Source: Spirochaetota bacterium
GTDB lineage: Bacteria > Spirochaetota > UBA4802 > UBA5550
Direction of reading: 5' to 3'
Length of the DNA stretch: 64,000 nucleotides
Assembly: GCA_041749375.1 (NCBI GenBank)
Contig: JBGTBN010000050.1
Location: forward strand, 6,789-70,788
Part shown: in pieces, positions 53,563 to 60,877 of the stretch
Layout: each line of letters starts with the position of its first letter
Position numbering within the stretch: the first letter of the stretch is position 1
The notes under the pieces: model-generated
The model's database searches: none
What the model was told of the DNA's origin: nothing
What the model saw: only the letters and a program-made list of their open reading frames with translations
Made by a program: the position numbers and the translations under genes

Positions 53563-53590
53563 TTGTTTTATATTGCATATAACTTAGCCA

Positions 53591-53616
53591 CCCCCCCTGT
53601 CCCCCGGAGGGGGCAC
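53591..53616. repeat. GC-hairpin repeat, left copy (CCCCCCCTGTCCCCCGGAGGGGGCAC)
   Basis: It contains a CCCCC-gga-GGGGG hairpin. Its reverse complement matches the right copy at 54013..54037 except for 2 loop positions. Confidence 0.8.
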
Positions 53617-53644
53617 GGAAGAAGAAGCGGGAAGTAAAGTCATT

Positions 53645-54051
53645 ATGAATACTCGTGTTGAAACGCTTGATTATGTTGTTGAACTGGCAAGAGATTTTTG
53701 AAACAATTTGACTGATGCTGAAAGATTGCCATGGTCCCGGTAAAAAGATAAACAGATTTCCGGATATAGGTTTAGATGTCAGCATTCTATCGATCGAAAT
53801 ATTATGGACTTCTATTGTCATGAAAAACTTATAGCGATTGAGTTAGATGGCGCTATGCATAGAGAAAAAAAAGACAATGATGAATACCGTGATAATTTCA
53901 TGAGAAGTAAGGGTATTATTACATTACGGTTTGTAATCGCGAAGTTGTTCAGGACCTTGAATTAATGATATGTAAAATCGAAACTGAATTATTACGAGAA
54001 GACTCATCTCGCGTGCCCCCTTTGGGGGACAGGGGGGAGTTGATGAGATGA
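53645..54051 (+). pseudogene. Decayed DUF559 (Vsr-like endonuclease fold) gene
   Basis: The reading ...ELARDF*NNLTDAERLPWSR*KDKQISGYRFRCQHSIDRNIMDFYCHEKLIAIELDGAMH...DNFMRSKGIITLRF has two in-frame stops (TGA at 53699 and a TAA). A frameshift before NREVVQDLELMICKIETELL is needed to reach the usual C-terminus. It is strongly AT-rich relative to its flanks. Confidence 0.7.
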
Positions 54052-54097
54052 TATGAGAAGACTGATCCGTCGCGCCCCCTTTGGGGGGCCGGGGGGG
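54013..54097. repeat. Two tandem copies of the GC-hairpin repeat (GTGCCCCCTTTGGGGGACAGGGGGG; CGCCCCCTTTGGGGGGCCGGGGGGG), each preceded by GAGAAGACTNATC
   Basis: The copies lie at 54013..54037 and 54073..54097. The preceding gagaagactcatctcgc and gagaagactgatccgtc show a tandem duplication of about 60 bp. Confidence 0.8.
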
Positions 54098-54116
54098 ATG
54101 CTGGCAACTTGCAGTT

Positions 54117-55838
54117 TTATCCAAGTCGCAAGATCAGGTAGAACAGAATAAGAAAAATGAAGTTGATGTCGACCAGTAGTTCGTATTTAAGGGCTATCAG
54201 GTAGTTCAGCCTGTTGATGAACGACATGAGCGCCATAAAATAAACGATGTTCAGGACCGGGAGCAGGAAGAGCGGGGACACGGTCATGATTGTAATCACG
54301 GCGAAGACGAGGATACCGAGTCCGCCGGCTGCGTTGGATATGATCCTGGTGTTCACCGTTCCGATCCATATCGGCAGTGTCTCCCGGCCGAGAATCAGGT
54401 CGCCCTGGTATGCGACAAGGTCAAGAAGGGCTGTGCGTAGAAAGATGAGACCGAATACCAGGGAGGAAAGCGCGGCAAGGCCGGTACTGCCGGGCAGATG
54501 GCTGACCAGGGGGAGAAGCACCGTCACGATGATCCACCCGAAGCTGGTTACGATTTTTGAATTGTAAAGCTTCCTGGCGATCCCGGAATTCAGTTTCCTG
54601 ATTACCAGCTTGACCGGTGCAGTAGAATACAGGAACCCCATGAGGTACGATCCGGCTATCACGCCGGTAGCGGCAGGTCCGTAGCGCAGCGTGATGAGCA
54701 TCGAGGCAGCCATCGACAGTATCGACGCGACGAGAAGAGGCACGCCGAACCGCCGGTAGATCCTGTACTTGTAGGGGTTGCTGAGCCTGAGGAACTTCTT
54801 TTCGAAGTAGTTGTTTATGGAATACATGGAGAATATGTAGAGCAGAGAGACAGTCGCAAGGGCGTGGTCGTCCGGCAAGCCGCAGTAGAGCATGGTAAAG
54901 AGCGTTACAAAGTAGGCGGCGACCGCAGACAGGATGTTCGTCCTGACGATGAATTCCAGCAGGAACAGGGAGGCCCTGACGAAGATATTGCTCTTCATGT
55001 ACTTGATGGTGTAGATTTTTTCCAGGATATTGTTGATGATCCATCCCGGCGTCGAGGTGCCGGCGGTAACCAGGACGTTGCTGGAATCGGCGAAGTCCTC
55101 TTCACGGAGTTCGTCCTCCGTCTCGACGTGGTACGTCGCGATGTCGCTGTCCCTGCCGATCTGGGCAAGCCGCCTGGTGTTGGCCGAGTTCTTGCCGCCT
55201 ACGACGACCAGCGTATCGGTACCGGCATCGATCCCGACGACGACGTCCTCCTGGCGAAGGCGCGTCGAATCGCAGATGGTGTCGAAAACGGTCACATTGT
55301 TCAGGGAAGCCTGGACGCGGCTTACGATTCGTTTGTAGAGCTCGCGGTCGAAGGTCGTCTGTGAAACCAGGATATAGCTGTCAGCCGGCGGTATGGAATC
55401 TGTTTCCGGCAGGTCCGGGATGACCGATACGCCGCTTGCGGCGTAGCTCATGAGCCCGATGACCTCGGCATGGTCCCTGTCGCCGGTGATAATGGTGTGG
55501 CTGCCGCCGGCGGAATGCTTTTTAATGACGGATTGGACGCGGGCTACCCGTGGACAGGTAAGGTTGATGACGTGCGAGGCGCACCGCTTCACCATGCGCA
55601 GCTCGTCAACCGGTATACCGTGCGTGCGGATGGCGATGCGCCTGTTTGATATATCGTCAAGGGACTCGATCGTGCTAAGCCCCCTCCCGTGAAGGACGTC
55701 TATGGTCTGGGGATTGTGGATCAGCGGCCCGTACACGTACAGGTCTTCGTCCGATGAATTGATCTCGTGGATGATGCGCAGTACGGCGTTCCTGACCCCC
55801 ATGCAAAATCCGGAATGTCTGGCAAGGGTGATCTTCAT
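54117..55838 (-). CDS. ispH: Fusion protein: 4-hydroxy-3-methylbut-2-enyl diphosphate reductase (IspH/LytB) plus a C-terminal polytopic UbiA-like membrane domain
   Basis: The N-terminal ~280 aa has the three IspH cluster Cys contexts (SGFCMGV, LTCPRV, DTICDST). The C-terminal ~290 aa has about 8 hydrophobic helices and a GDLILGRETLPIWIG segment reminiscent of the second UbiA motif. Confidence 0.85.
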   Translation of the reverse strand: MKITLARHSGFCMGVRNAVLRIIHEINSSDEDLYVYGPLIHNPQTIDVLHGRGLSTIESLDDISNRRIAIRTHGIPVDELRMVKRCASHVINLTCPRVARVQSVIKKHSAGGSHTIITGDRDHAEVIGLMSYAASGVSVIPDLPETDSIPPADSYILVSQTTFDRELYKRIVSRVQASLNNVTVFDTICDSTRLRQEDVVVGIDAGTDTLVVVGGKNSANTRRLAQIGRDSDIATYHVETEDELREEDFADSSNVLVTAGTSTPGWIINNILEKIYTIKYMKSNIFVRASLFLLEFIVRTNILSAVAAYFVTLFTMLYCGLPDDHALATVSLLYIFSMYSINNYFEKKFLRLSNPYKYRIYRRFGVPLLVASILSMAASMLITLRYGPAATGVIAGSYLMGFLYSTAPVKLVIRKLNSGIARKLYNSKIVTSFGWIIVTVLLPLVSHLPGSTGLAALSSLVFGLIFLRTALLDLVAYQGDLILGRETLPIWIGTVNTRIISNAAGGLGILVFAVITIMTVSPLFLLPVLNIVYFMALMSFINRLNYLIALKYELLVDINFIFLILFYLILRLG

Positions 55839-55851
55839 GGGCGGTGCCGCG

Positions 55852-56787
55852 TCATTGGACGGGAAGAATTTTGTCCATGGGGTGGTCGGAATCCGGGGCC
55901 GGAGCCGAAGAATTGCCCGGCGAAATATCTATCCGGGGAGCGACCAGGGAGCCCTTGACAGGGATGACCAGCTGGTTCCGGTCATTGATGTACTTCGAAA
56001 TGAAGTCGCGGTAATTGTCAAACAGGGGAGTGTCCGCGTTCATGGTAACCTTGATGTCGATGCGCGAGCTCCAGAAAATCTTCGACATTTCGATGGACCC
56101 AGTAATCGTGCCGTTGAGATCCTTGCCGAATATTCGTATGTTTTTCAGGATCACCTTTCTTCCCGATATTTCCGCTTCCGCCTTGACTGAGGTTATCTTG
56201 ATCGGGGGAAGGATCAGGGGCAGGCCGCCCATGGTGTCCGGAAGCGTGAACTGGCCGATGTCGAGCGAAGCGTTCTCAATGAAAATGTTGAAGTCGCCAC
56301 CCTGTGGAAGGTCATTGAATGACTTGTAATCGATGAAGATATTGCCCTGCAGGTTGAAATTGATCTTCGAGCTTTCCGACTCGTATTTAAAGCCGGTCAG
56401 GTCGACCGATCCCTTGACGTCATTCCGGAACAGGATGCGGAGAAACGAGATGTTGATGTCCGCGCTCCGTATCGAGATCTCACTCCCGCTGCGAAGCACC
56501 ATGTAGATGTTGTTAAGTACGGTCATGCGGATGAGACTGAAATCGATTTCACTGATGTAGACTGTCCGGAAAAGGGTTTTCTCGAGGTCTTTCATTTTTT
56601 TCCTGATCAGCATGTCATAGGGGAAGGTGAAAACGAGGAACACCATGGTCATGATCACGGCGGCGGCGACATAGGTTTTCGCGTACGGGAGCTTGAAGGC
56701 CTCCTTTATTTTGGGCCAGAGGGCCTTGAAATTCAGAACCCCTTTCAGGTTCGTCAGTACGATATTCTTGATGCTCGAGATATCCAT
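55852..56787 (-). CDS. gspN: Type II secretion system protein N-like (bitopic, last gene of the gsp cluster)
   Basis: It has a single N-terminal TM (YVAAAVIMTMVFLVFTF) and a large periplasmic domain. The assignment rests mainly on position after gspM. Confidence 0.55.
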   Translation of the reverse strand: MDISSIKNIVLTNLKGVLNFKALWPKIKEAFKLPYAKTYVAAAVIMTMVFLVFTFPYDMLIRKKMKDLEKTLFRTVYISEIDFSLIRMTVLNNIYMVLRSGSEISIRSADINISFLRILFRNDVKGSVDLTGFKYESESSKINFNLQGNIFIDYKSFNDLPQGGDFNIFIENASLDIGQFTLPDTMGGLPLILPPIKITSVKAEAEISGRKVILKNIRIFGKDLNGTITGSIEMSKIFWSSRIDIKVTMNADTPLFDNYRDFISKYINDRNQLVIPVKGSLVAPRIDISPGNSSAPAPDSDHPMDKILPVQ

Positions 56788-56803
56788 CGGTGCTCCGCGC
56801 CTG

Positions 56804-57319
56804 TCATTGTGATGTAATGCTGTTGAACGTCATGGTCGCATCGTAGGTGTTGCGCCCCTTGATCGTCTGGTTTATCCTCAGGTAACTGATTTGTATGAGC
56901 ATGCCTGAATTTTCCATCTTGTAGATAAAGTTCAGTATCGAATTGATGTCGAGACCTTCGAAACGAACATCCGCCGATATCTTTTTGTATTTCCCCTGGG
57001 CCACGGTCGGCCGGTCCCTGGTATAGGTCTTGTTCTTGATAATGTTGAGGCTCTGTGCGTTTTCCTCGATAAGCGACGTGATCCCGCGCGTATTGTTAAG
57101 CTGGGCGGAATACTGGGAGTTTTTCTGCTTTAGATCCTGGTACTCCTCGTACAGCTTGTCGAGCATGGTGAGGTTGGTCATGTTCTGCTCGTACTCGCGG
57201 TTTATGCTTTCGCGCAGTCCCATGATCGGCGAAATGATGAGGAAATATATGAGCAGGATCCCGAGGACGACGCCCAGAATCTGTAGAAGTCTTGTTTCCC
57301 GTTTGCTCAGTTCAATCAT
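56804..57319 (-). CDS. gspM: Type II secretion system protein M-like (PilO-like bitopic protein)
   Basis: The 171-aa protein has an N-terminal TM (LLQILGVVLGILLIYFLIISPI) followed by a coiled coil. It sits between the gspL-like and gspN-like genes. Confidence 0.6.
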   Translation of the reverse strand: MIELSKRETRLLQILGVVLGILLIYFLIISPIMGLRESINREYEQNMTNLTMLDKLYEEYQDLKQKNSQYSAQLNNTRGITSLIEENAQSLNIIKNKTYTRDRPTVAQGKYKKISADVRFEGLDINSILNFIYKMENSGMLIQISYLRINQTIKGRNTYDATMTFNSITSQ

Positions 57320-57330
57320 GGGGACGCACC

Positions 57331-58959
57331 TTACTCTTTTTTCGCCGGCGGCGTGATCTTATGCTTGATGGTCATCGAGAACCGGACCTCGTTCTGGCGC
57401 GAATACTTGATGTTCAGCGTGACGTTCTCGAACTTCTTGGTCTTGATCAGGCTTTCCTTGAAGGTATCGACTATCGCGCTGGTGCCTGCGACGCCCTCGA
57501 TCATGAGGATGCTCTCGTTGAAGACCAGGTTATTCAGGACAAAATTGCTGTCGCCGGGGAACTGCGAAAGTATGTCTTTCATGATGTCGAGGAATGACCC
57601 GCTGTTCGGCACGAGCTTGGAAACCGAGTCGAGCTCGGTTTTTTCCTTTTTGATGAGCTTCTTAGCGTCGGCGATCGGGTCGCTGCTGACGTTGCGCGTC
57701 TGGAAATAACGGCTGAACTGTTCGACGAGTATCTGGTTGTACTGCCGGTTGGAGCGCGCGGTCAGCACCGCTGATAGGATCAAATTGATTATCAGGATGA
57801 CCACCGTCAGGGCGGCGAATCCGCCCGACAGGTAGTATATCTTTTTCGATTCGCTTGCAACGTCGGGTATGAACTCGCCTTTCAGGAAATTGATGGACGA
57901 GCGGCGGCGGTTAATATAAGCGAGGACCGTGCCGAACGCGATGGGAAACTGGGTCCGTATGTTGCGCTCCTTGTAGTCGTCAAGAAAGGGAAGTGCGTCG
58001 ATCGGGACATCGAGTTGGGCCGAGAGGATGGATCCGAGACCCGTCATGGTGGAGCCGCCGCCCGAGATAAGCGCCCGGTTGTAGGTGATCTCGCCGCACT
58101 CCACCTGCATGGCCTTCCGGGTAAGCATGATCTGTTCGATCAGCCCGTCCACGCTCTCGCGGGCCGTATCATATACCTTGCGCAGCTGCTGGCGGGTGAG
58201 GCCGAGCGATTTGTAATAGTCCCGCTGTACGTTGTTATCGAGCGAAGTCAGGTCCAGGTTGAGGTTCTGGTAAAGCCGGTCCGCCTCGGACGGCTTGATT
58301 TTGAAATACGAGGCCATGGCCCCGGTGATACGGTTGATGCCGATTGCGATGGAGCGCGTGTACAATAGCGTATTGTTTTCGATGAAGTTGATTATCGTTT
58401 TGTTGTACCCGATGTCGATCTGGATGACCGACTCGCTCTCGATCTTGTTGAAATATCGATAGCACTCGAACAGGGCGTTCGCCTCCATGCCCATCTTGAG
58501 AGGCTGGATGCCGCCGGCGTTAAGGAGCTGGATGAAGTCGTGTATGACGGATTTATGGGCCGCGGCGAGGAGTATGCGGCCTTCGTTTTCCCGCTTGCTC
58601 TTCATGGACTGGAAGTCAAGAATCAGGTCTTCCAGCTTGAACGGTATGTTCTCCTCGGCCTCGTAAGGGATCGCATCCGCGATCTTCTCCACGTCGCTGA
58701 AGGGGAACGAGATGGTCCGGATGATCTCGTATTCCATGGGGAGGTTGGTGATGACGCGGTAGCCGGACAGGTCCTCCTCGGTGAGGATCTTCCGTATGGA
58801 CGCGACCATTCCGGCGTTCCGGTCTTCGGCATCGAGGTCGATGTCCTCGTAATTGAATGCCTTGAGCTGGAAGTCCCGGAACCCGGTCTTCACGGTCACG
58901 AGTTTTATGGAATGCGTCCCGACGTCAATGGCAGCGATATTCTCGAACAAGGGAACCAC
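57331..58959 (-). CDS. gspL: Type II secretion system protein L-like: PilM-type actin-fold cytoplasmic domain, TM, and periplasmic domain
   Basis: IAAIDVGTHSIKLV is an actin-like ATPase phosphate-1 motif. A central TM (LSGGFAALTVVILIINLILSAVL) is present. The gene sits between gspK and gspM. Confidence 0.7.
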   Translation of the reverse strand: MVPLFENIAAIDVGTHSIKLVTVKTGFRDFQLKAFNYEDIDLDAEDRNAGMVASIRKILTEEDLSGYRVITNLPMEYEIIRTISFPFSDVEKIADAIPYEAEENIPFKLEDLILDFQSMKSKRENEGRILLAAAHKSVIHDFIQLLNAGGIQPLKMGMEANALFECYRYFNKIESESVIQIDIGYNKTIINFIENNTLLYTRSIAIGINRITGAMASYFKIKPSEADRLYQNLNLDLTSLDNNVQRDYYKSLGLTRQQLRKVYDTARESVDGLIEQIMLTRKAMQVECGEITYNRALISGGGSTMTGLGSILSAQLDVPIDALPFLDDYKERNIRTQFPIAFGTVLAYINRRRSSINFLKGEFIPDVASESKKIYYLSGGFAALTVVILIINLILSAVLTARSNRQYNQILVEQFSRYFQTRNVSSDPIADAKKLIKKEKTELDSVSKLVPNSGSFLDIMKDILSQFPGDSNFVLNNLVFNESILMIEGVAGTSAIVDTFKESLIKTKKFENVTLNIKYSRQNEVRFSMTIKHKITPPAKKE

Positions 58960-58968
58960 CCCGCGGTA

Positions 58969-60180
58969 TTATTCTTCGCACCAGTAATATAAATTCCGCA
59001 TGTCGCGGTTATAATACGCAGTGATCTTCACCCGCGTGTTTCCGAAGTCAGCGGTCGTGAGGATCTTGAAAATATGGGATTTAACGCTGAGACGGTCCAG
59101 CACCGTCTGGTCGCCGATCATGTCCTTGATTTCATCGACCGTCTTGAATGGCTGTACCAGTCTCCTGTTAATAATCTCCGTCACAATATCAGGGGTCATT
59201 TTATCTGTCAACGCAGATAATACCCGGTATGATGCCGTGTTGATGTTGATCTTGTTGAATTCGCTCAGGTAATCGTTCCGGTCACCGTACGAGGTGAAGT
59301 AATCCGACAGCATCCTGCTCTTTTCCTTGCCGATGGCGGTCAGTTCCCTGTTCGCGGCGGCGTCCTCAGTGTTGGGCCCGGCTCCGCCGACGAGCTCGCG
59401 GATTTTATCCAGGTCCAGGTCTATGTTCCCCTTGTTGTGTTCGACCAGGTTCTGCTCGTTCTTCTCCGCCTCGGTGTTGCCGCCGCCCTTGCCGTAAAAA
59501 ATGAGGGGCGTCATGTCTTTTAACAGCAACAGCTCGTCGATGCTGTCCATCGCGTTGTTCTTGGCGTTATAGGGCGGCGTCTGCGACTGGTAGAAGTCCC
59601 CTCCCTCCGAGCCGTAGGGCATGCGGGAGTCGTCCACGTCGACCCAGTCGTGAATGGCGTCGGCAAAATCGATGGGAAGACCCATGTTCATGAAAAAATT
59701 CTGTGTGAAGAAATAGAGCTTTGTCCTGTCGGTAAACTCGTTGGCCAGGATGCTCAGGTTGATCTTCGCGTTCTCGTCGGAGATCTGTATCTTGAGCGTG
59801 CCGTCGTCTATCGGGATGGCGGGAAAGTTGATGGCCCACAGGTCGTTGTAGGAGTCGATCTCCTTGTCCGTCGGCTTCCCGGTAAGCATCTCGGTCGTTA
59901 CGCCCTTGAGGTCTGCATACAGGATGAACTGGGCGAGCTGTATGCCCGATTTTGCCAGGTAGCTCGCCTTGAGCTGGTTCTTCAGCTTCTGCCCGTACCC
60001 GATATTGACGTGCGCGACGGCGATGAACTCGCCCGCTACCGACACGAGCAGGGTAGTGAGAATGAGGACGATTATGAGGACATACCCGGACGGGGAACGC
60101 AGGTAGGACAGTATACCGCGTTCGGCAAGGACGCGGGCGCGCTCCCGGTAGTTGCTCCTGAACCGGTTCGGTATGCCCAT
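58969..60180 (-). CDS. gspK: Type II secretion minor pseudopilin K
   Basis: The hydrophobic N-terminus lacks Glu+5 (GYVLIIVLILTTLLVS). An HhH-like ININTASYRVLSAL is typical of GspK. ATG 60180 lies 1 nt after the gspJ stop. Confidence 0.8.
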   Translation of the reverse strand: MGIPNRFRSNYRERARVLAERGILSYLRSPSGYVLIIVLILTTLLVSVAGEFIAVAHVNIGYGQKLKNQLKASYLAKSGIQLAQFILYADLKGVTTEMLTGKPTDKEIDSYNDLWAINFPAIPIDDGTLKIQISDENAKINLSILANEFTDRTKLYFFTQNFFMNMGLPIDFADAIHDWVDVDDSRMPYGSEGGDFYQSQTPPYNAKNNAMDSIDELLLLKDMTPLIFYGKGGGNTEAEKNEQNLVEHNKGNIDLDLDKIRELVGGAGPNTEDAAANRELTAIGKEKSRMLSDYFTSYGDRNDYLSEFNKININTASYRVLSALTDKMTPDIVTEIINRRLVQPFKTVDEIKDMIGDQTVLDRLSVKSHIFKILTTADFGNTRVKITAYYNRDMRNLYYWCEE

Positions 60181-60181
60181 T

Positions 60182-60877
60182 TTACTTGAACTCCCTGATG
60201 TTGACCAGCGAGACAAATTCGAACGTTTCCTCCTTTGCCTGGTAGTTCTTCACCACCAGCGTCGTTTTTACGGCCTTGGGAAAATTGTTGTTCTGGCGCG
60301 AGTCCCAGTTGCCGTCCCAGTCGTTTCCCCGGTTGAATTCGAACTTGAGACTGACAACGTTTGGAAGGAGTATGTTCTCCGTGCCGCCCTCGAGCGGGTC
60401 ATCCTCCCAGTAGTTGAACTTTTCACGCTTTATGAGATAGGAAAGCCCCTGGGTTTTCTTGTCCGCCCTGAGAAAATAGCCGACTTCGCGCACGTCGCTT
60501 GACCGTACCGGGGTATTCGCGGTCCCGATGAAATTGTAATCGTTGTGGTTGACAGTGACGAAGTTCAGCCTGCTGTCGCTCCCGTCGGTCTCGCAGATGA
60601 AGGTAATGTTCTTGTTCGTGCGCGTGAAATAGGCGTTCGATATGTCCCGGTCTATGCTCAGGAGGGCCAGGTTGACGTTTTCGTAAAACTCGGACAGGCC
60701 GGTGGAGCGCTTGATTGTTTCAAAAATCGAGCGGTACGAGGCGTACGCCATGATCAGGATTATCGATCCGATGGCTACCGCCACCATGATCTCGATCAGG
60801 GTGAACCCAGCGTTCCGGGGCGTTGTTGCGGGCCCGGTGCCCGCGGAAGATACCGTGTAAGCGTGTTTTGCTGTCAT
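60182..60877 (-). CDS. gspJ: Type II secretion minor pseudopilin J-like
   Basis: The prepilin motif is NAG/FTLIEIMVAVAIGSIIL. Size and order fit GspJ. Confidence 0.72.
   Translation of the reverse strand: MTAKHAYTVSSAGTGPATTPRNAGFTLIEIMVAVAIGSIILIMAYASYRSIFETIKRSTGLSEFYENVNLALLSIDRDISNAYFTRTNKNITFICETDGSDSRLNFVTVNHNDYNFIGTANTPVRSSDVREVGYFLRADKKTQGLSYLIKREKFNYWEDDPLEGGTENILLPNVVSLKFEFNRGNDWDGNWDSRQNNNFPKAVKTTLVVKNYQAKEETFEFVSLVNIREFK

What the first reader, a model, noticed from the sequence alone, without database searches (positions are those of the whole stretch)
54117..55838. IspH (last MEP-pathway enzyme) fused to a polytopic UbiA-like membrane domain
**The IspH part.** Residues 1 to about 280 form a complete IspH/LytB with all three [4Fe-4S] cysteines in canonical contexts.

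**The membrane part.** The same ORF continues, with no stop or frameshift, into about 290 residues with roughly eight hydrophobic helices. One segment (LVAYQGDLILGRETLPIWIG) resembles the second Asp-rich motif region of UbiA-superfamily prenyltransferases. I cannot see an intact first NxxxDxxxD motif.

**Why it is unusual.** The IspH fusions I know of are to ribosomal protein S1, not to a membrane protein. Tethering the enzyme that releases IPP/DMAPP to a prenyltransferase-like membrane domain would channel isoprenoid units directly into a membrane product such as a quinone, a lipid carrier or an ether-type lipid.

**Context.** The gene starts 13 nt after gspN on the same strand.
Basis: partly seen in the sequence, partly recalled or inferred. 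Interest (0 to 1): 0.65.

Follow-up and report, generated by a model that had tools for sequence, protein, structure and literature searches.

The report
Membrane-anchored IspH–UbiA fusion, spirochaete branch
This gene really does join the last enzyme of the MEP isoprenoid pathway (IspH) to a nine-helix UbiA-type membrane domain, but this kind of fusion was already described in 2015, so this is a diverged spirochaete member of a known family whose membrane half still has no known function.

Summary
**Observation: confirmed.**
- Window 54117..55838 (minus strand) is one uninterrupted 573-aa ORF.
- Residues 1–277 are a complete IspH. Residues 302–573 form a nine-helix UbiA-fold membrane domain.

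**The fusion is not an artefact.**
- 37 species-representative genomes carry it as a single open frame: 36 labelled as spirochaetes and one Glassbacteria.
- An exhaustive search finds about 300 cluster representatives (E ≤ 1e-30), nearly all ~575 aa, from several phyla.

**It is not new.**
- Rao et al. 2015 (PMC4746011) described IspH–UbiA "Rosetta stone" fusions in sulfate reducers.
- The spirochaete membrane domain is the same family as the canonical one (hhalign probability 100%, E = 3.6e-43).

**What differs in the spirochaete branch.**
- Two acidic positions have fixed replacements: D/E354→N and D476→A.
- The acidic residue of motif 1 is missing in some members.
- Pfam UbiA scores below threshold for the window protein.

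**Function.**
- The gene occupies the housekeeping ispH slot, at the tail of the T2SS cluster. Sister spirochaetes have a stand-alone ispH there.
- Most likely it is the cell's HMBPP reductase, held rigidly on the cytoplasmic face of a UbiA-type pocket.
- Whether that pocket still transfers a prenyl group, and to what, is unknown.

The parts
54117..55838 (-). Whole ispH-ubiA-like ORF (573 aa plus stop)
   Evidence: There are no internal stops. It is a single open frame in 37 related genomes. The AF2 model has mean pLDDT 95.9 and pTM 0.92.
55008..55838 (-). IspH (HMBPP reductase) domain, residues 1-277. Cluster Cys codons: C12 at 55803-55805, C95 at 55554-55556, C189 at 55272-55274.
   Evidence: Pfam LYTB E = 4.9e-74 and TIGR00216 above cutoff. 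Catalytic residues are invariant. Foldseek matches 3dnf at TM 0.86 and E. coli IspH:HMBPP at TM 0.83, rmsd 2.0.
54936..55007 (-). Short, length-constrained linker: end of the last IspH helix plus a helix at residues 285-299 ending in the conserved (S/T)N motif, residues 278-301
   Evidence: The spacing from P264 to residue 300 is exactly 37 residues in 131 of 163 fused proteins from several phyla. The helix is predicted with pLDDT above 90.
54120..54935 (-). UbiA-fold membrane domain, nine TM helices, N-terminus in the cytoplasm, residues 302-573
   Evidence: Foldseek matches AfUbiA 4tq3, DGGGPS 7bpu and ApUbiA 4od4 at TM 0.60-0.65, probability 1.0. Pfam UbiA scores only 18.2 bits, below the threshold of 34.2. 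Positive-inside count is 14 K+R against 0. hhalign to the canonical IspH-UbiA domains gives probability 100%, E = 3.6e-43.
54768..54815 (-). Degenerate first motif, cytoplasmic loop L2-3: N342-N-Y-F-E346 ... S353-N354-P-Y-K357
   Evidence: N342 is conserved in both subfamilies. Position 346 is D/E in 33 of 43 spirochaete-type proteins. Position 354 is N in 42 of 43, against D/E in 68 of 120 other fusions. The motif aligns to ChlG 'LNDFYDRDIDAINEPYR'.
54360..54437 (-). Second motif, cytoplasmic loop L6-7: R468...D473-L-V-A476-Y-Q-G-D480-L-I-L-G-R-E-T-L-P...G493
   Evidence: This is the most conserved segment (mean 0.82). D473 and D480 are invariant in the clade. Position 476 is Ala in 40 of 43, against D/E in 92 of 120 other fusions. 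ChlG has Ser at this position.
55852..56787 (-). Upstream ORF (311 aa) at the 'gspN' position of the T2SS cluster, 13 nt from the ispH start (context only, not part of the protein)
   Evidence: It has no T2SSN Pfam hit. gspK-L-M-orfN lie directly upstream in 39 of 39 related loci with enough sequence.

Best explanation
The gene encodes a single polypeptide with two parts. One is a fully intact IspH, the [4Fe-4S] HMBPP reductase that makes IPP and DMAPP. It is joined through a short linker of fixed length to the other part, a nine-helix UbiA-superfamily membrane domain.

The protein is a diverged spirochaete branch of the IspH-UbiA fusion family described in 2015. It sits in the genomic slot of the housekeeping ispH, so it is most likely the cell's working IspH.

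**Inferred mechanism.**
- IspH is held on the cytoplasmic face of the inner membrane, directly over the cytoplasm-facing pocket of the UbiA-type domain.
- Its C5 diphosphate products are therefore released next to that pocket.
- The pocket still looks functional. N342, Y404, K428, R468, D473, D480, R485 and E486/T487 are conserved, and the cytoplasmic loops are its best conserved parts.
- I therefore favour, at about 50%, that it still binds a prenyl diphosphate and transfers the prenyl group to an unknown membrane acceptor, possibly with a short-chain donor such as DMAPP.

**Shown:** the architecture, the folds, the topology, the conservation and the family relationship.

**Inferred:** membrane tethering, channelling, and any transferase activity.
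For: - **Intact ORF and IspH signatures:**
- **The fusion is conserved.** It is a single frame in 37 species-representative genomes. The exhaustive search gives 318 representatives at E <= 1e-30, nearly all about 575 aa and matching the whole profile.
- **Same family as canonical fusions.** These come from Deltaproteobacteria, Nitrospinota and Planctomycetota, where Pfam UbiA passes threshold. hhalign gives probability 100%, E = 3.6e-43 over 286 columns.
- **Prior description:** PMC4746011.
- **Structure.** The deep-alignment AF2 model has pLDDT 95.9 and pTM 0.92. Its halves match IspH (TM 0.83-0.86) and UbiA-fold enzymes (TM 0.60-0.65).
- **Topology and conservation.** N-in topology places the conserved loops in the cytoplasm. 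Loop conservation is 0.67-0.82, against 0.33-0.42 for periplasmic loops.
- **Linker length** is nearly invariant across phyla.
- **Housekeeping slot.** Sister spirochaete lineages carry a stand-alone 282-291-aa ispH at the same position after gspL-gspM-orfN. Synteny holds in 39 of 39 loci.
- **No close stand-alone paralogue.** No stand-alone IspH on a long contig is closer than about 46% identity.
- **Ala476 is compatible with activity.** Chlorophyll synthase has Ser at that position.
Against: - No biochemical data exist for any IspH-UbiA protein. The 2015 authors failed to express a full-length one.
- In this branch the canonical NDxxDxxxD motif is absent, and two acidic positions kept by most other fusions are replaced: 354 D/E to N and 476 D to A. 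Eight of 43 members also lack the acidic residue at 346. The two-Mg2+ diphosphate site may therefore be impaired.
- Pfam UbiA is below threshold for this protein. PDB sequence-profile searches find no UbiA structure at a significant E-value.
- The membrane half evolves faster than the IspH half (0.40 against 0.62 mean pairwise identity).
- Gene neighbourhoods give no hint of an acceptor.
- I could not test whether a second ispH exists in the genome.
Confidence: 0.8

Rival explanations
1. In the spirochaete branch the UbiA-like half is no longer an enzyme. It is a pseudo-enzyme that only anchors IspH to the membrane, or binds and senses a prenyl diphosphate or lipid to regulate IspH. No prenyl group is transferred.
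For: - Motif 1 is degenerate and loses its acidic residue altogether in 8 of 43 members.
- Position 354 is fixed as Asn and position 476 as Ala, where other fusions keep Asp/Glu.
- Pfam UbiA scores only 18 bits.
- The membrane half is less conserved than IspH.
- The 2015 paper also raised localisation and sensor roles.
Against: - A simple anchor would not need nine helices.
- It would also not keep cytoplasmic loop motifs almost invariant over a clade that has diverged to about 40% identity. These include QGDLILGRETLP, YNSK, R468, D473, D480 and LKYE..VD.
- Active chlorophyll synthase also lacks Asp at the 476-equivalent position.
- The residues kept are those shared with the canonical fusions.
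Confidence: 0.3
2. The fusion is an artefact of this window: a missed stop, a frameshift or an assembly chimera joining two adjacent genes.
For: Three related contigs (L001-L003) have ispH and the membrane gene called separately.
Against: - Those splits come from a single extra base in L001 and from multiple frameshifts in visibly error-rich assemblies.
- 37 species-representative genomes from many projects have one open frame.
- Linker length is conserved across phyla.
- AF2 gives pTM 0.92 for the whole chain.
Confidence: 0.02
3. The fused protein is functionally tied to the type II secretion system encoded immediately upstream, for example by making a lipid needed by the secretion machinery.
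For: gspK-L-M-orfN directly precede the gene on the same strand in 39 of 39 loci, with a gap of only about 13 nt.
Against: - The same T2SS-ispH order is found in sister lineages whose ispH has no membrane domain. The linkage therefore predates, or is independent of, the UbiA-like half.
- Fusions in other phyla have unrelated neighbours.
Confidence: 0.04

Closest known systems
IspH-UbiA 'Rosetta stone' fusion proteins (Rao, O'Dowd, Li, Wang, Oldfield, Chem Sci 2015; PMC4746011; UbiA part classed as PT_UbiA_5)
   Same: - Same architecture: IspH at the N-terminus and a roughly nine-TM UbiA-like domain at the C-terminus, about 575 aa in total.
- The membrane domains are homologous from end to end (hhalign probability 100%).
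- Linker length is the same.
- Function is unknown in both.
   Different: - The published set was reported as 'all in sulfate-reducing bacteria'. This branch is in uncultured Spirochaetota.
- The published proteins are said to carry two DxxxD motifs. Here D476 is Ala, D/E354 is Asn, and Pfam UbiA falls below threshold.
- I did not compare directly with the named species of the paper. I used Deltaproteobacteria-, Nitrospinota- and Planctomycetota-labelled fusions instead.
UbiA-superfamily intramembrane prenyltransferases with solved structures (AfUbiA 4TQ3, ApUbiA 4OD4/5, DGGGP synthase 7BPU/6M31, chlorophyll synthase 9SAU)
   Same: - Same fold (TM 0.60-0.65, probability 1.0).
- The conserved motifs lie in cytoplasmic loops L2-3 and L6-7.
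- The motif 2 core GD...G..(T/S)LP is shared with chlorophyll synthase.
   Different: - Only 11-16% identity.
- The first motif NDxxDxxxD is reduced to NNxx(E/D).
- It is fused to IspH.
- No acceptor can be inferred.
IspH-RPS1 fusions of Clostridia and Fusobacteria (NCBIfam NF000907)
   Same: The N-terminal IspH carries a C-terminal extension. The IspH half of this protein scores best against that model's first 283 positions.
   Different: The partner there is a soluble RNA-binding S1 repeat array, not a membrane domain. The full NF000907 cutoff is not met (263 against 624 bits).
Stand-alone IspH of sister spirochaete lineages (e.g. L053, GCA_027858855.1)
   Same: Same genomic slot directly after gspL-gspM-orfN. 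In a rough NJ tree it groups on the same side as the spirochaete fusions.
   Different: It is 282-291 aa with no membrane domain. It is only about 43% identical to the IspH half here.

Membership tests
IspH/LytB (HMBPP reductase) | Family profile match above the curated threshold | tested here: met
   Pfam PF02401 scores 249 bits (cutoff 24.5). TIGR00216 scores 238.6 bits (cutoff 187.85).
IspH/LytB (HMBPP reductase) | Three [4Fe-4S] cysteines and the substrate-binding His, Glu, Thr, Ser and Asn residues | tested here: met
   C12, C95, C189, H41, H73, H123, E125, T161, S218, N220 and S262 are present in the window protein. All are invariant in 38 relatives except T161 (37 of 38).
IspH/LytB (HMBPP reductase) | Trefoil three-domain fold | tested here: met
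   Foldseek matches 3dnf at TM 0.86 and E. coli IspH:HMBPP at TM 0.83, rmsd 2.0 A.
IspH/LytB (HMBPP reductase) | Converts HMBPP to IPP and DMAPP | not testable with these tools
   This needs complementation of an E. coli ispH mutant or an enzyme assay.
UbiA superfamily of intramembrane prenyltransferases | Pfam PF01040 at or above the gathering score | tested here: not met
   The window protein scores 18.2 bits against 34.2. Relatives range from no hit to 34.9 bits (spirochaete-type) and 41-66 bits (canonical fusions).
UbiA superfamily of intramembrane prenyltransferases | UbiA fold: 8-9 TM helices, N-terminus inside, active-site loops facing the cytoplasm | tested here: met
   The model is confident (pLDDT above 90). 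The best membrane-protein matches are AfUbiA, DGGGPS and ApUbiA at TM 0.60-0.65. The positive-inside count is 14 against 0.
UbiA superfamily of intramembrane prenyltransferases | First Asp-rich motif N-D-x-x-D-x-x-x-D in loop 2-3 | tested here: not met
   The sequence is N342-N-Y-F-E-K-K-F-L. Only the Asn and one acidic residue remain, and the acidic residue is absent in 8 of 43 clade members.
UbiA superfamily of intramembrane prenyltransferases | Second Asp-rich motif D-x-x-x-D in loop 6-7 | tested here: inconclusive
   The sequence is D473-L-V-A476-Y-Q-G-D480. The first Asp of DxxxD is Ala, but D473 and D480 are invariant. Chlorophyll synthase has D-F-K-S-V-E-G-D with the same spacing.
UbiA superfamily of intramembrane prenyltransferases | Mg2+-dependent prenyl transfer | not testable with these tools
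IspH-UbiA fusion family (Rao et al. 2015) | IspH and a UbiA-like domain in one polypeptide, with IspH at the N-terminus | tested here: met
IspH-UbiA fusion family (Rao et al. 2015) | Membrane domain homologous to that of the canonical fusions | tested here: met
   hhalign A3 against A4 gives probability 100%, E = 3.6e-43 over 286 columns. The exhaustive search also shows a continuum of scores.
IspH-UbiA fusion family (Rao et al. 2015) | Two DxxxD motifs in the UbiA part, as stated in the paper | tested here: not met
   See the motif rows above.
IspH-UbiA fusion family (Rao et al. 2015) | CDD class PT_UbiA_5 | not testable with these tools
   No CDD search was available.

The most novel reading that the evidence does not exclude
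In the spirochaete branch, the UbiA-type pocket has lost the canonical two-metal diphosphate site (D/E354 to N, D476 to A, and the motif 1 acid lost in some members). It has either become a new kind of module or moved to a different chemistry.
- **New module:** a prenyl-diphosphate- or lipid-sensing pseudo-enzyme that tethers and controls the cell's only IspH at the membrane.
- **Different chemistry:** a transferase that uses IspH's own C5 product or substrate (DMAPP or HMBPP) directly on a membrane acceptor.

Either way it would be the first functional assignment for any IspH-UbiA protein.
Probability: 0.3. Interest if true: 0.55.

Novelty: new member of a known kind. Interest (0 to 1): 0.3.

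Why it matters
- IspH is an essential enzyme and a drug target. The purpose of its UbiA fusion has been an open question since 2015.
- This work shows the fusion family is much larger and taxonomically wider than reported: hundreds of representatives in Spirochaetota, Desulfobacterota, Nitrospinota, Planctomycetota and others.
- The junction geometry is tightly conserved, and in spirochaetes the fused gene replaces the housekeeping ispH in situ.
- The spirochaete branch offers a natural experiment. Its pocket has two acidic positions swapped, which could help decide whether the membrane half is catalytic.
- The practical value is modest. The result corrects the idea that this is a new architecture, and it flags that database proteins called 'stand-alone' versions of the domain are mostly frameshift artefacts.

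Tried and rejected
- **PDB sequence-profile searches.** Searches with the membrane domain found no UbiA structure at a useful E-value. The best was chlorophyll synthase at E = 0.27. The fold search was needed instead.
- **First alignment (A2).** I therefore rely only on the top 150 (nearly all about 575 aa, matching across the whole profile) and on the E <= 1e-30 count.
- **First structure model.** It had a poor IspH half because the alignment was shallow. A 105-sequence alignment replaced it.
- **Neighbourhoods in three other phyla** showed no shared partner genes.
- **Second ispH in the same genome.** Indirect evidence only: the positional orthology and the absence of close stand-alone homologues.
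- **Stand-alone versions of the membrane domain.** Every candidate examined turned out to be a split or truncated call of a fusion: P0001, P0003 and P0018, and P0099.
- **Rfam scan of the window:** no hits.
- **Model coordinates** are not exposed, so the IspH-to-pocket interface could not be measured.
- **NJ tree of IspH halves** has no support values and is used only as a hint.
- **Rejected outright:** an unrelated transporter and an assembly chimera.
Full report
**1. The observation**

The feature is one ORF on the minus strand, 55838 down to 54117. It is 573 codons long with no internal stop.

Residues 3-275 match Pfam LYTB (E = 4.9e-74). The whole protein passes the NCBIfam ispH equivalog TIGR00216 (238.6 bits, cutoff 187.85).

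The three cluster cysteines are C12, C95 and C189. They and the substrate-binding residues H41, H73, H123, E125, S218, N220 and S262 are invariant in 38 relatives, and T161 is kept in 37 of 38. C95, H123, E125 and C189 are also invariant in all 163 fused proteins aligned, and C12 is Cys in every sequence that covers that column (149 of 163).

The C-terminal half gives only a sub-threshold Pfam UbiA hit (18.2 bits against 34.2).

**2. Is the junction real?**

Three related metagenome contigs (L001-L003) call ispH and the membrane gene separately. These splits are artefacts:
- In L001, homology to the window protein runs straight through residues 289/290, with exactly one extra base between the two frames.
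- L002 and L003 are visibly full of frameshifts.

A scan of one genome per species found 43 loci. All but two are in records labelled Spirochaetota, Spirochaetes, Spirochaetia, Leptospirales or Leptospiraceae. Every locus with enough sequence has a single open frame covering residues 1 to about 570. That makes 37 full-length proteins of 569-587 aa, down to 46% identity, including one Glassbacteria locus at 32%. The fusion is therefore genuine and conserved.

**3. How common is it, and is it known?**

A profile search of 1.84 billion cluster representatives gave 318 hits at E <= 1e-30. The best 150 are nearly all about 575 aa and match across both the end of IspH and the whole membrane domain. 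The profile includes about 120 IspH positions, so the lower-score counts are inflated.

Below the spirochaete tier (above 280 bits) lies a long series at 200-266 bits. These come from Deltaproteobacteria, Nitrospinota and Planctomycetota/Brocadiales. In them Pfam UbiA passes threshold (41-66 bits), and databases call them simply IspH.

The literature search found Rao et al. [quoted passage not shown] That paper reports:
- 47 IspH-UbiA fusions, 'all in sulfate-reducing bacteria';
- a UbiA part classed as PT_UbiA_5, with two DxxxD motifs;
- the same channelling or localisation hypothesis;
- failed attempts to express the full-length protein.

No later paper deals with these fusions.

A profile-profile comparison of the spirochaete membrane domains against the canonical ones gives probability 100%, E = 3.6e-43 over 286 columns. 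This is the same family, not an independent invention.

**4. Structure and topology**

With a 105-sequence alignment, AlphaFold2 gives mean pLDDT 95.9 and pTM 0.92 for the whole chain. A pTM that high for a two-domain protein implies a confidently predicted mutual arrangement.

Fold matches:

| Half | Best matches | TM-score |
|---|---|---|
| N-terminal | Aquifex IspH | 0.86 |
| N-terminal | E. coli IspH:HMBPP | 0.83 (rmsd 2.0 A) |
| C-terminal | AfUbiA, DGGGP synthase, ApUbiA | 0.60-0.65 |

The membrane half has nine TM helices, preceded by a short helix (285-299) that follows the last IspH helix almost directly.

Loops L2-3, L4-5, L6-7 and L8-9 carry 14 Lys+Arg, against none in the opposite loops. 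The N-terminus and these loops are therefore cytoplasmic, on the same side as IspH. Those cytoplasmic loops are the best conserved parts of the domain (0.67-0.82, against 0.33-0.42 for periplasmic loops).

The spacing between the IspH STP motif and the start of TM1 is exactly 37 residues in 131 of 163 fusions from several phyla. All this argues for rigid, selected coupling and against a loose tether.

**5. What is different in the spirochaete branch**

I compared 43 spirochaete-type proteins with 120 other fusions.

Conserved in both groups: N342, Y404, K428, W435, P443, R468, D473, D480, G484, E486 and T487.

Positions that differ:

| Position | Spirochaete-type (43) | Other fusions (120) |
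|---|---|---|
| 354 | Asn in 42 | Asp/Glu in 68 |
| 476 | Ala in 40 | Asp/Glu in 92 |
| 346 | Asp/Glu in 33; Met or Thr in 8 Leptospiraceae-like members | Asp/Glu in 81 |

The canonical NDxxDxxxD motif is absent from the whole fusion family, which has N...D followed by N-D-P.

A weak but motif-level alignment to chlorophyll synthase (9sau) is informative. That active enzyme has D-F-K-S-V-E-G-D, with Ser where the spirochaete clade has Ala. Ala476 alone therefore does not prove inactivity.

**6. Genomic context**

In 39 of 39 spirochaete loci with enough upstream sequence, the gene directly follows gspK, gspL/pilM, gspM and a 311-aa ORF on the same strand. aroE and folC usually follow.

Two stand-alone spirochaete IspHs (282-291 aa, about 43% identical) lie in exactly the same slot after gspL-gspM-orfN, followed by ribH-nusB. 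Two conclusions follow:
- The T2SS-ispH order is ancestral and not specific to the fusion.
- The fused gene is the positional counterpart of the housekeeping ispH.

No stand-alone IspH on a long contig is closer than about 46% to this IspH half. In other phyla the neighbours are unrelated housekeeping genes.

A rough NJ tree places the spirochaete fusion IspH halves near the stand-alone spirochaete IspHs. It also shows fused and unfused forms intermixed elsewhere (no support values). That pattern suggests repeated gain or loss of the membrane half.

**7. Interpretation**

Shown:
- a real fusion with both folds intact;
- the topology;
- a conserved cytoplasmic pocket;
- membership of the published fusion family;
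- the housekeeping position.

Inferred:
- IspH works at the membrane surface, over a UbiA-type pocket.
- That pocket either still transfers a prenyl group to an unknown acceptor (about 50%) or has become a binding or anchoring module (about 30%).

If channelling is the point of the fusion, the donor would most logically be IspH's own C5 product. This is speculation.

**8. Verdict**

The UbiA-like call is supported by fold and by family relationship. The claim of an unprecedented architecture is not supported.

This is a new, diverged member of a known but functionally uncharacterised fusion family.

Noticed in passing
window 53563-54116: The gap between the fused gene and aroE is 554 nt here, against about 65 nt in the close relative L001. 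It holds an AT-rich core (GC 0.32-0.41 against about 0.58 around it). On the + strand, at 53804-53965, is a truncated DUF559 endonuclease-like ORF (Pfam 39.2 bits, profile positions 46-93 of 109). The core is flanked by GC-rich hairpin repeats: CCCCCTTTGGGGG twice at 54016 and 54075, and a related copy near 53600. This is probably the remnant of an inserted element.
   Followed up: partly
window 55852-60216 and loci L004-L046, L053: ispH, whether fused or stand-alone, always sits at the tail of the gspK-gspL-gspM-orfN cluster on the same strand, with a gap of about 13 nt or an overlap. This holds across a deeply diverged spirochaete group: 39 of 39 fusion loci, and also lineages with a plain ispH. 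The reason for this conserved linkage is unexplained.
   Followed up: partly
It is conserved at this position in all related loci but diverges fast (26-85% identity).
   Followed up: partly
L001 5936-5938; L002; L003 5890-6040: In several public assemblies the fusion is split by 1-nt indels. As a result, databases contain apparent 'stand-alone' UbiA-like proteins (P0001, P0003, P0018) and truncated IspHs. These are assembly or gene-calling artefacts, not separate genes.
   Followed up: yes
L059 624-626 and L060 322-324: A low-GC (31%) relative has a TGA codon exactly at the invariant Gly of the IspH T-H-G motif (RTH*IP). The rest of the 577-codon frame is intact. The gene sequence is identical in two independent datasets. 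It is either a recent nonsense mutation or UGA read as Gly. Other genes on the contig end normally.
   Followed up: partly
proteins P0024-P0036 (tier at 280-430 bits): An intermediate group of fused proteins lies between the spirochaete type and the canonical type and has even more eroded motifs. In P0036, for example, motif 1 reads INNLRM and motif 2 reads DIITIDGDTITGRVTLP. This suggests a gradient of pocket degeneration within the family.
   Followed up: no
L032 (CAZDZB010000279.1): One fusion-bearing 1.9-kb contig is binned in a MAG labelled Christensenellaceae (Firmicutes), although the protein is spirochaete-type. This is probably a binning error.
   Followed up: no
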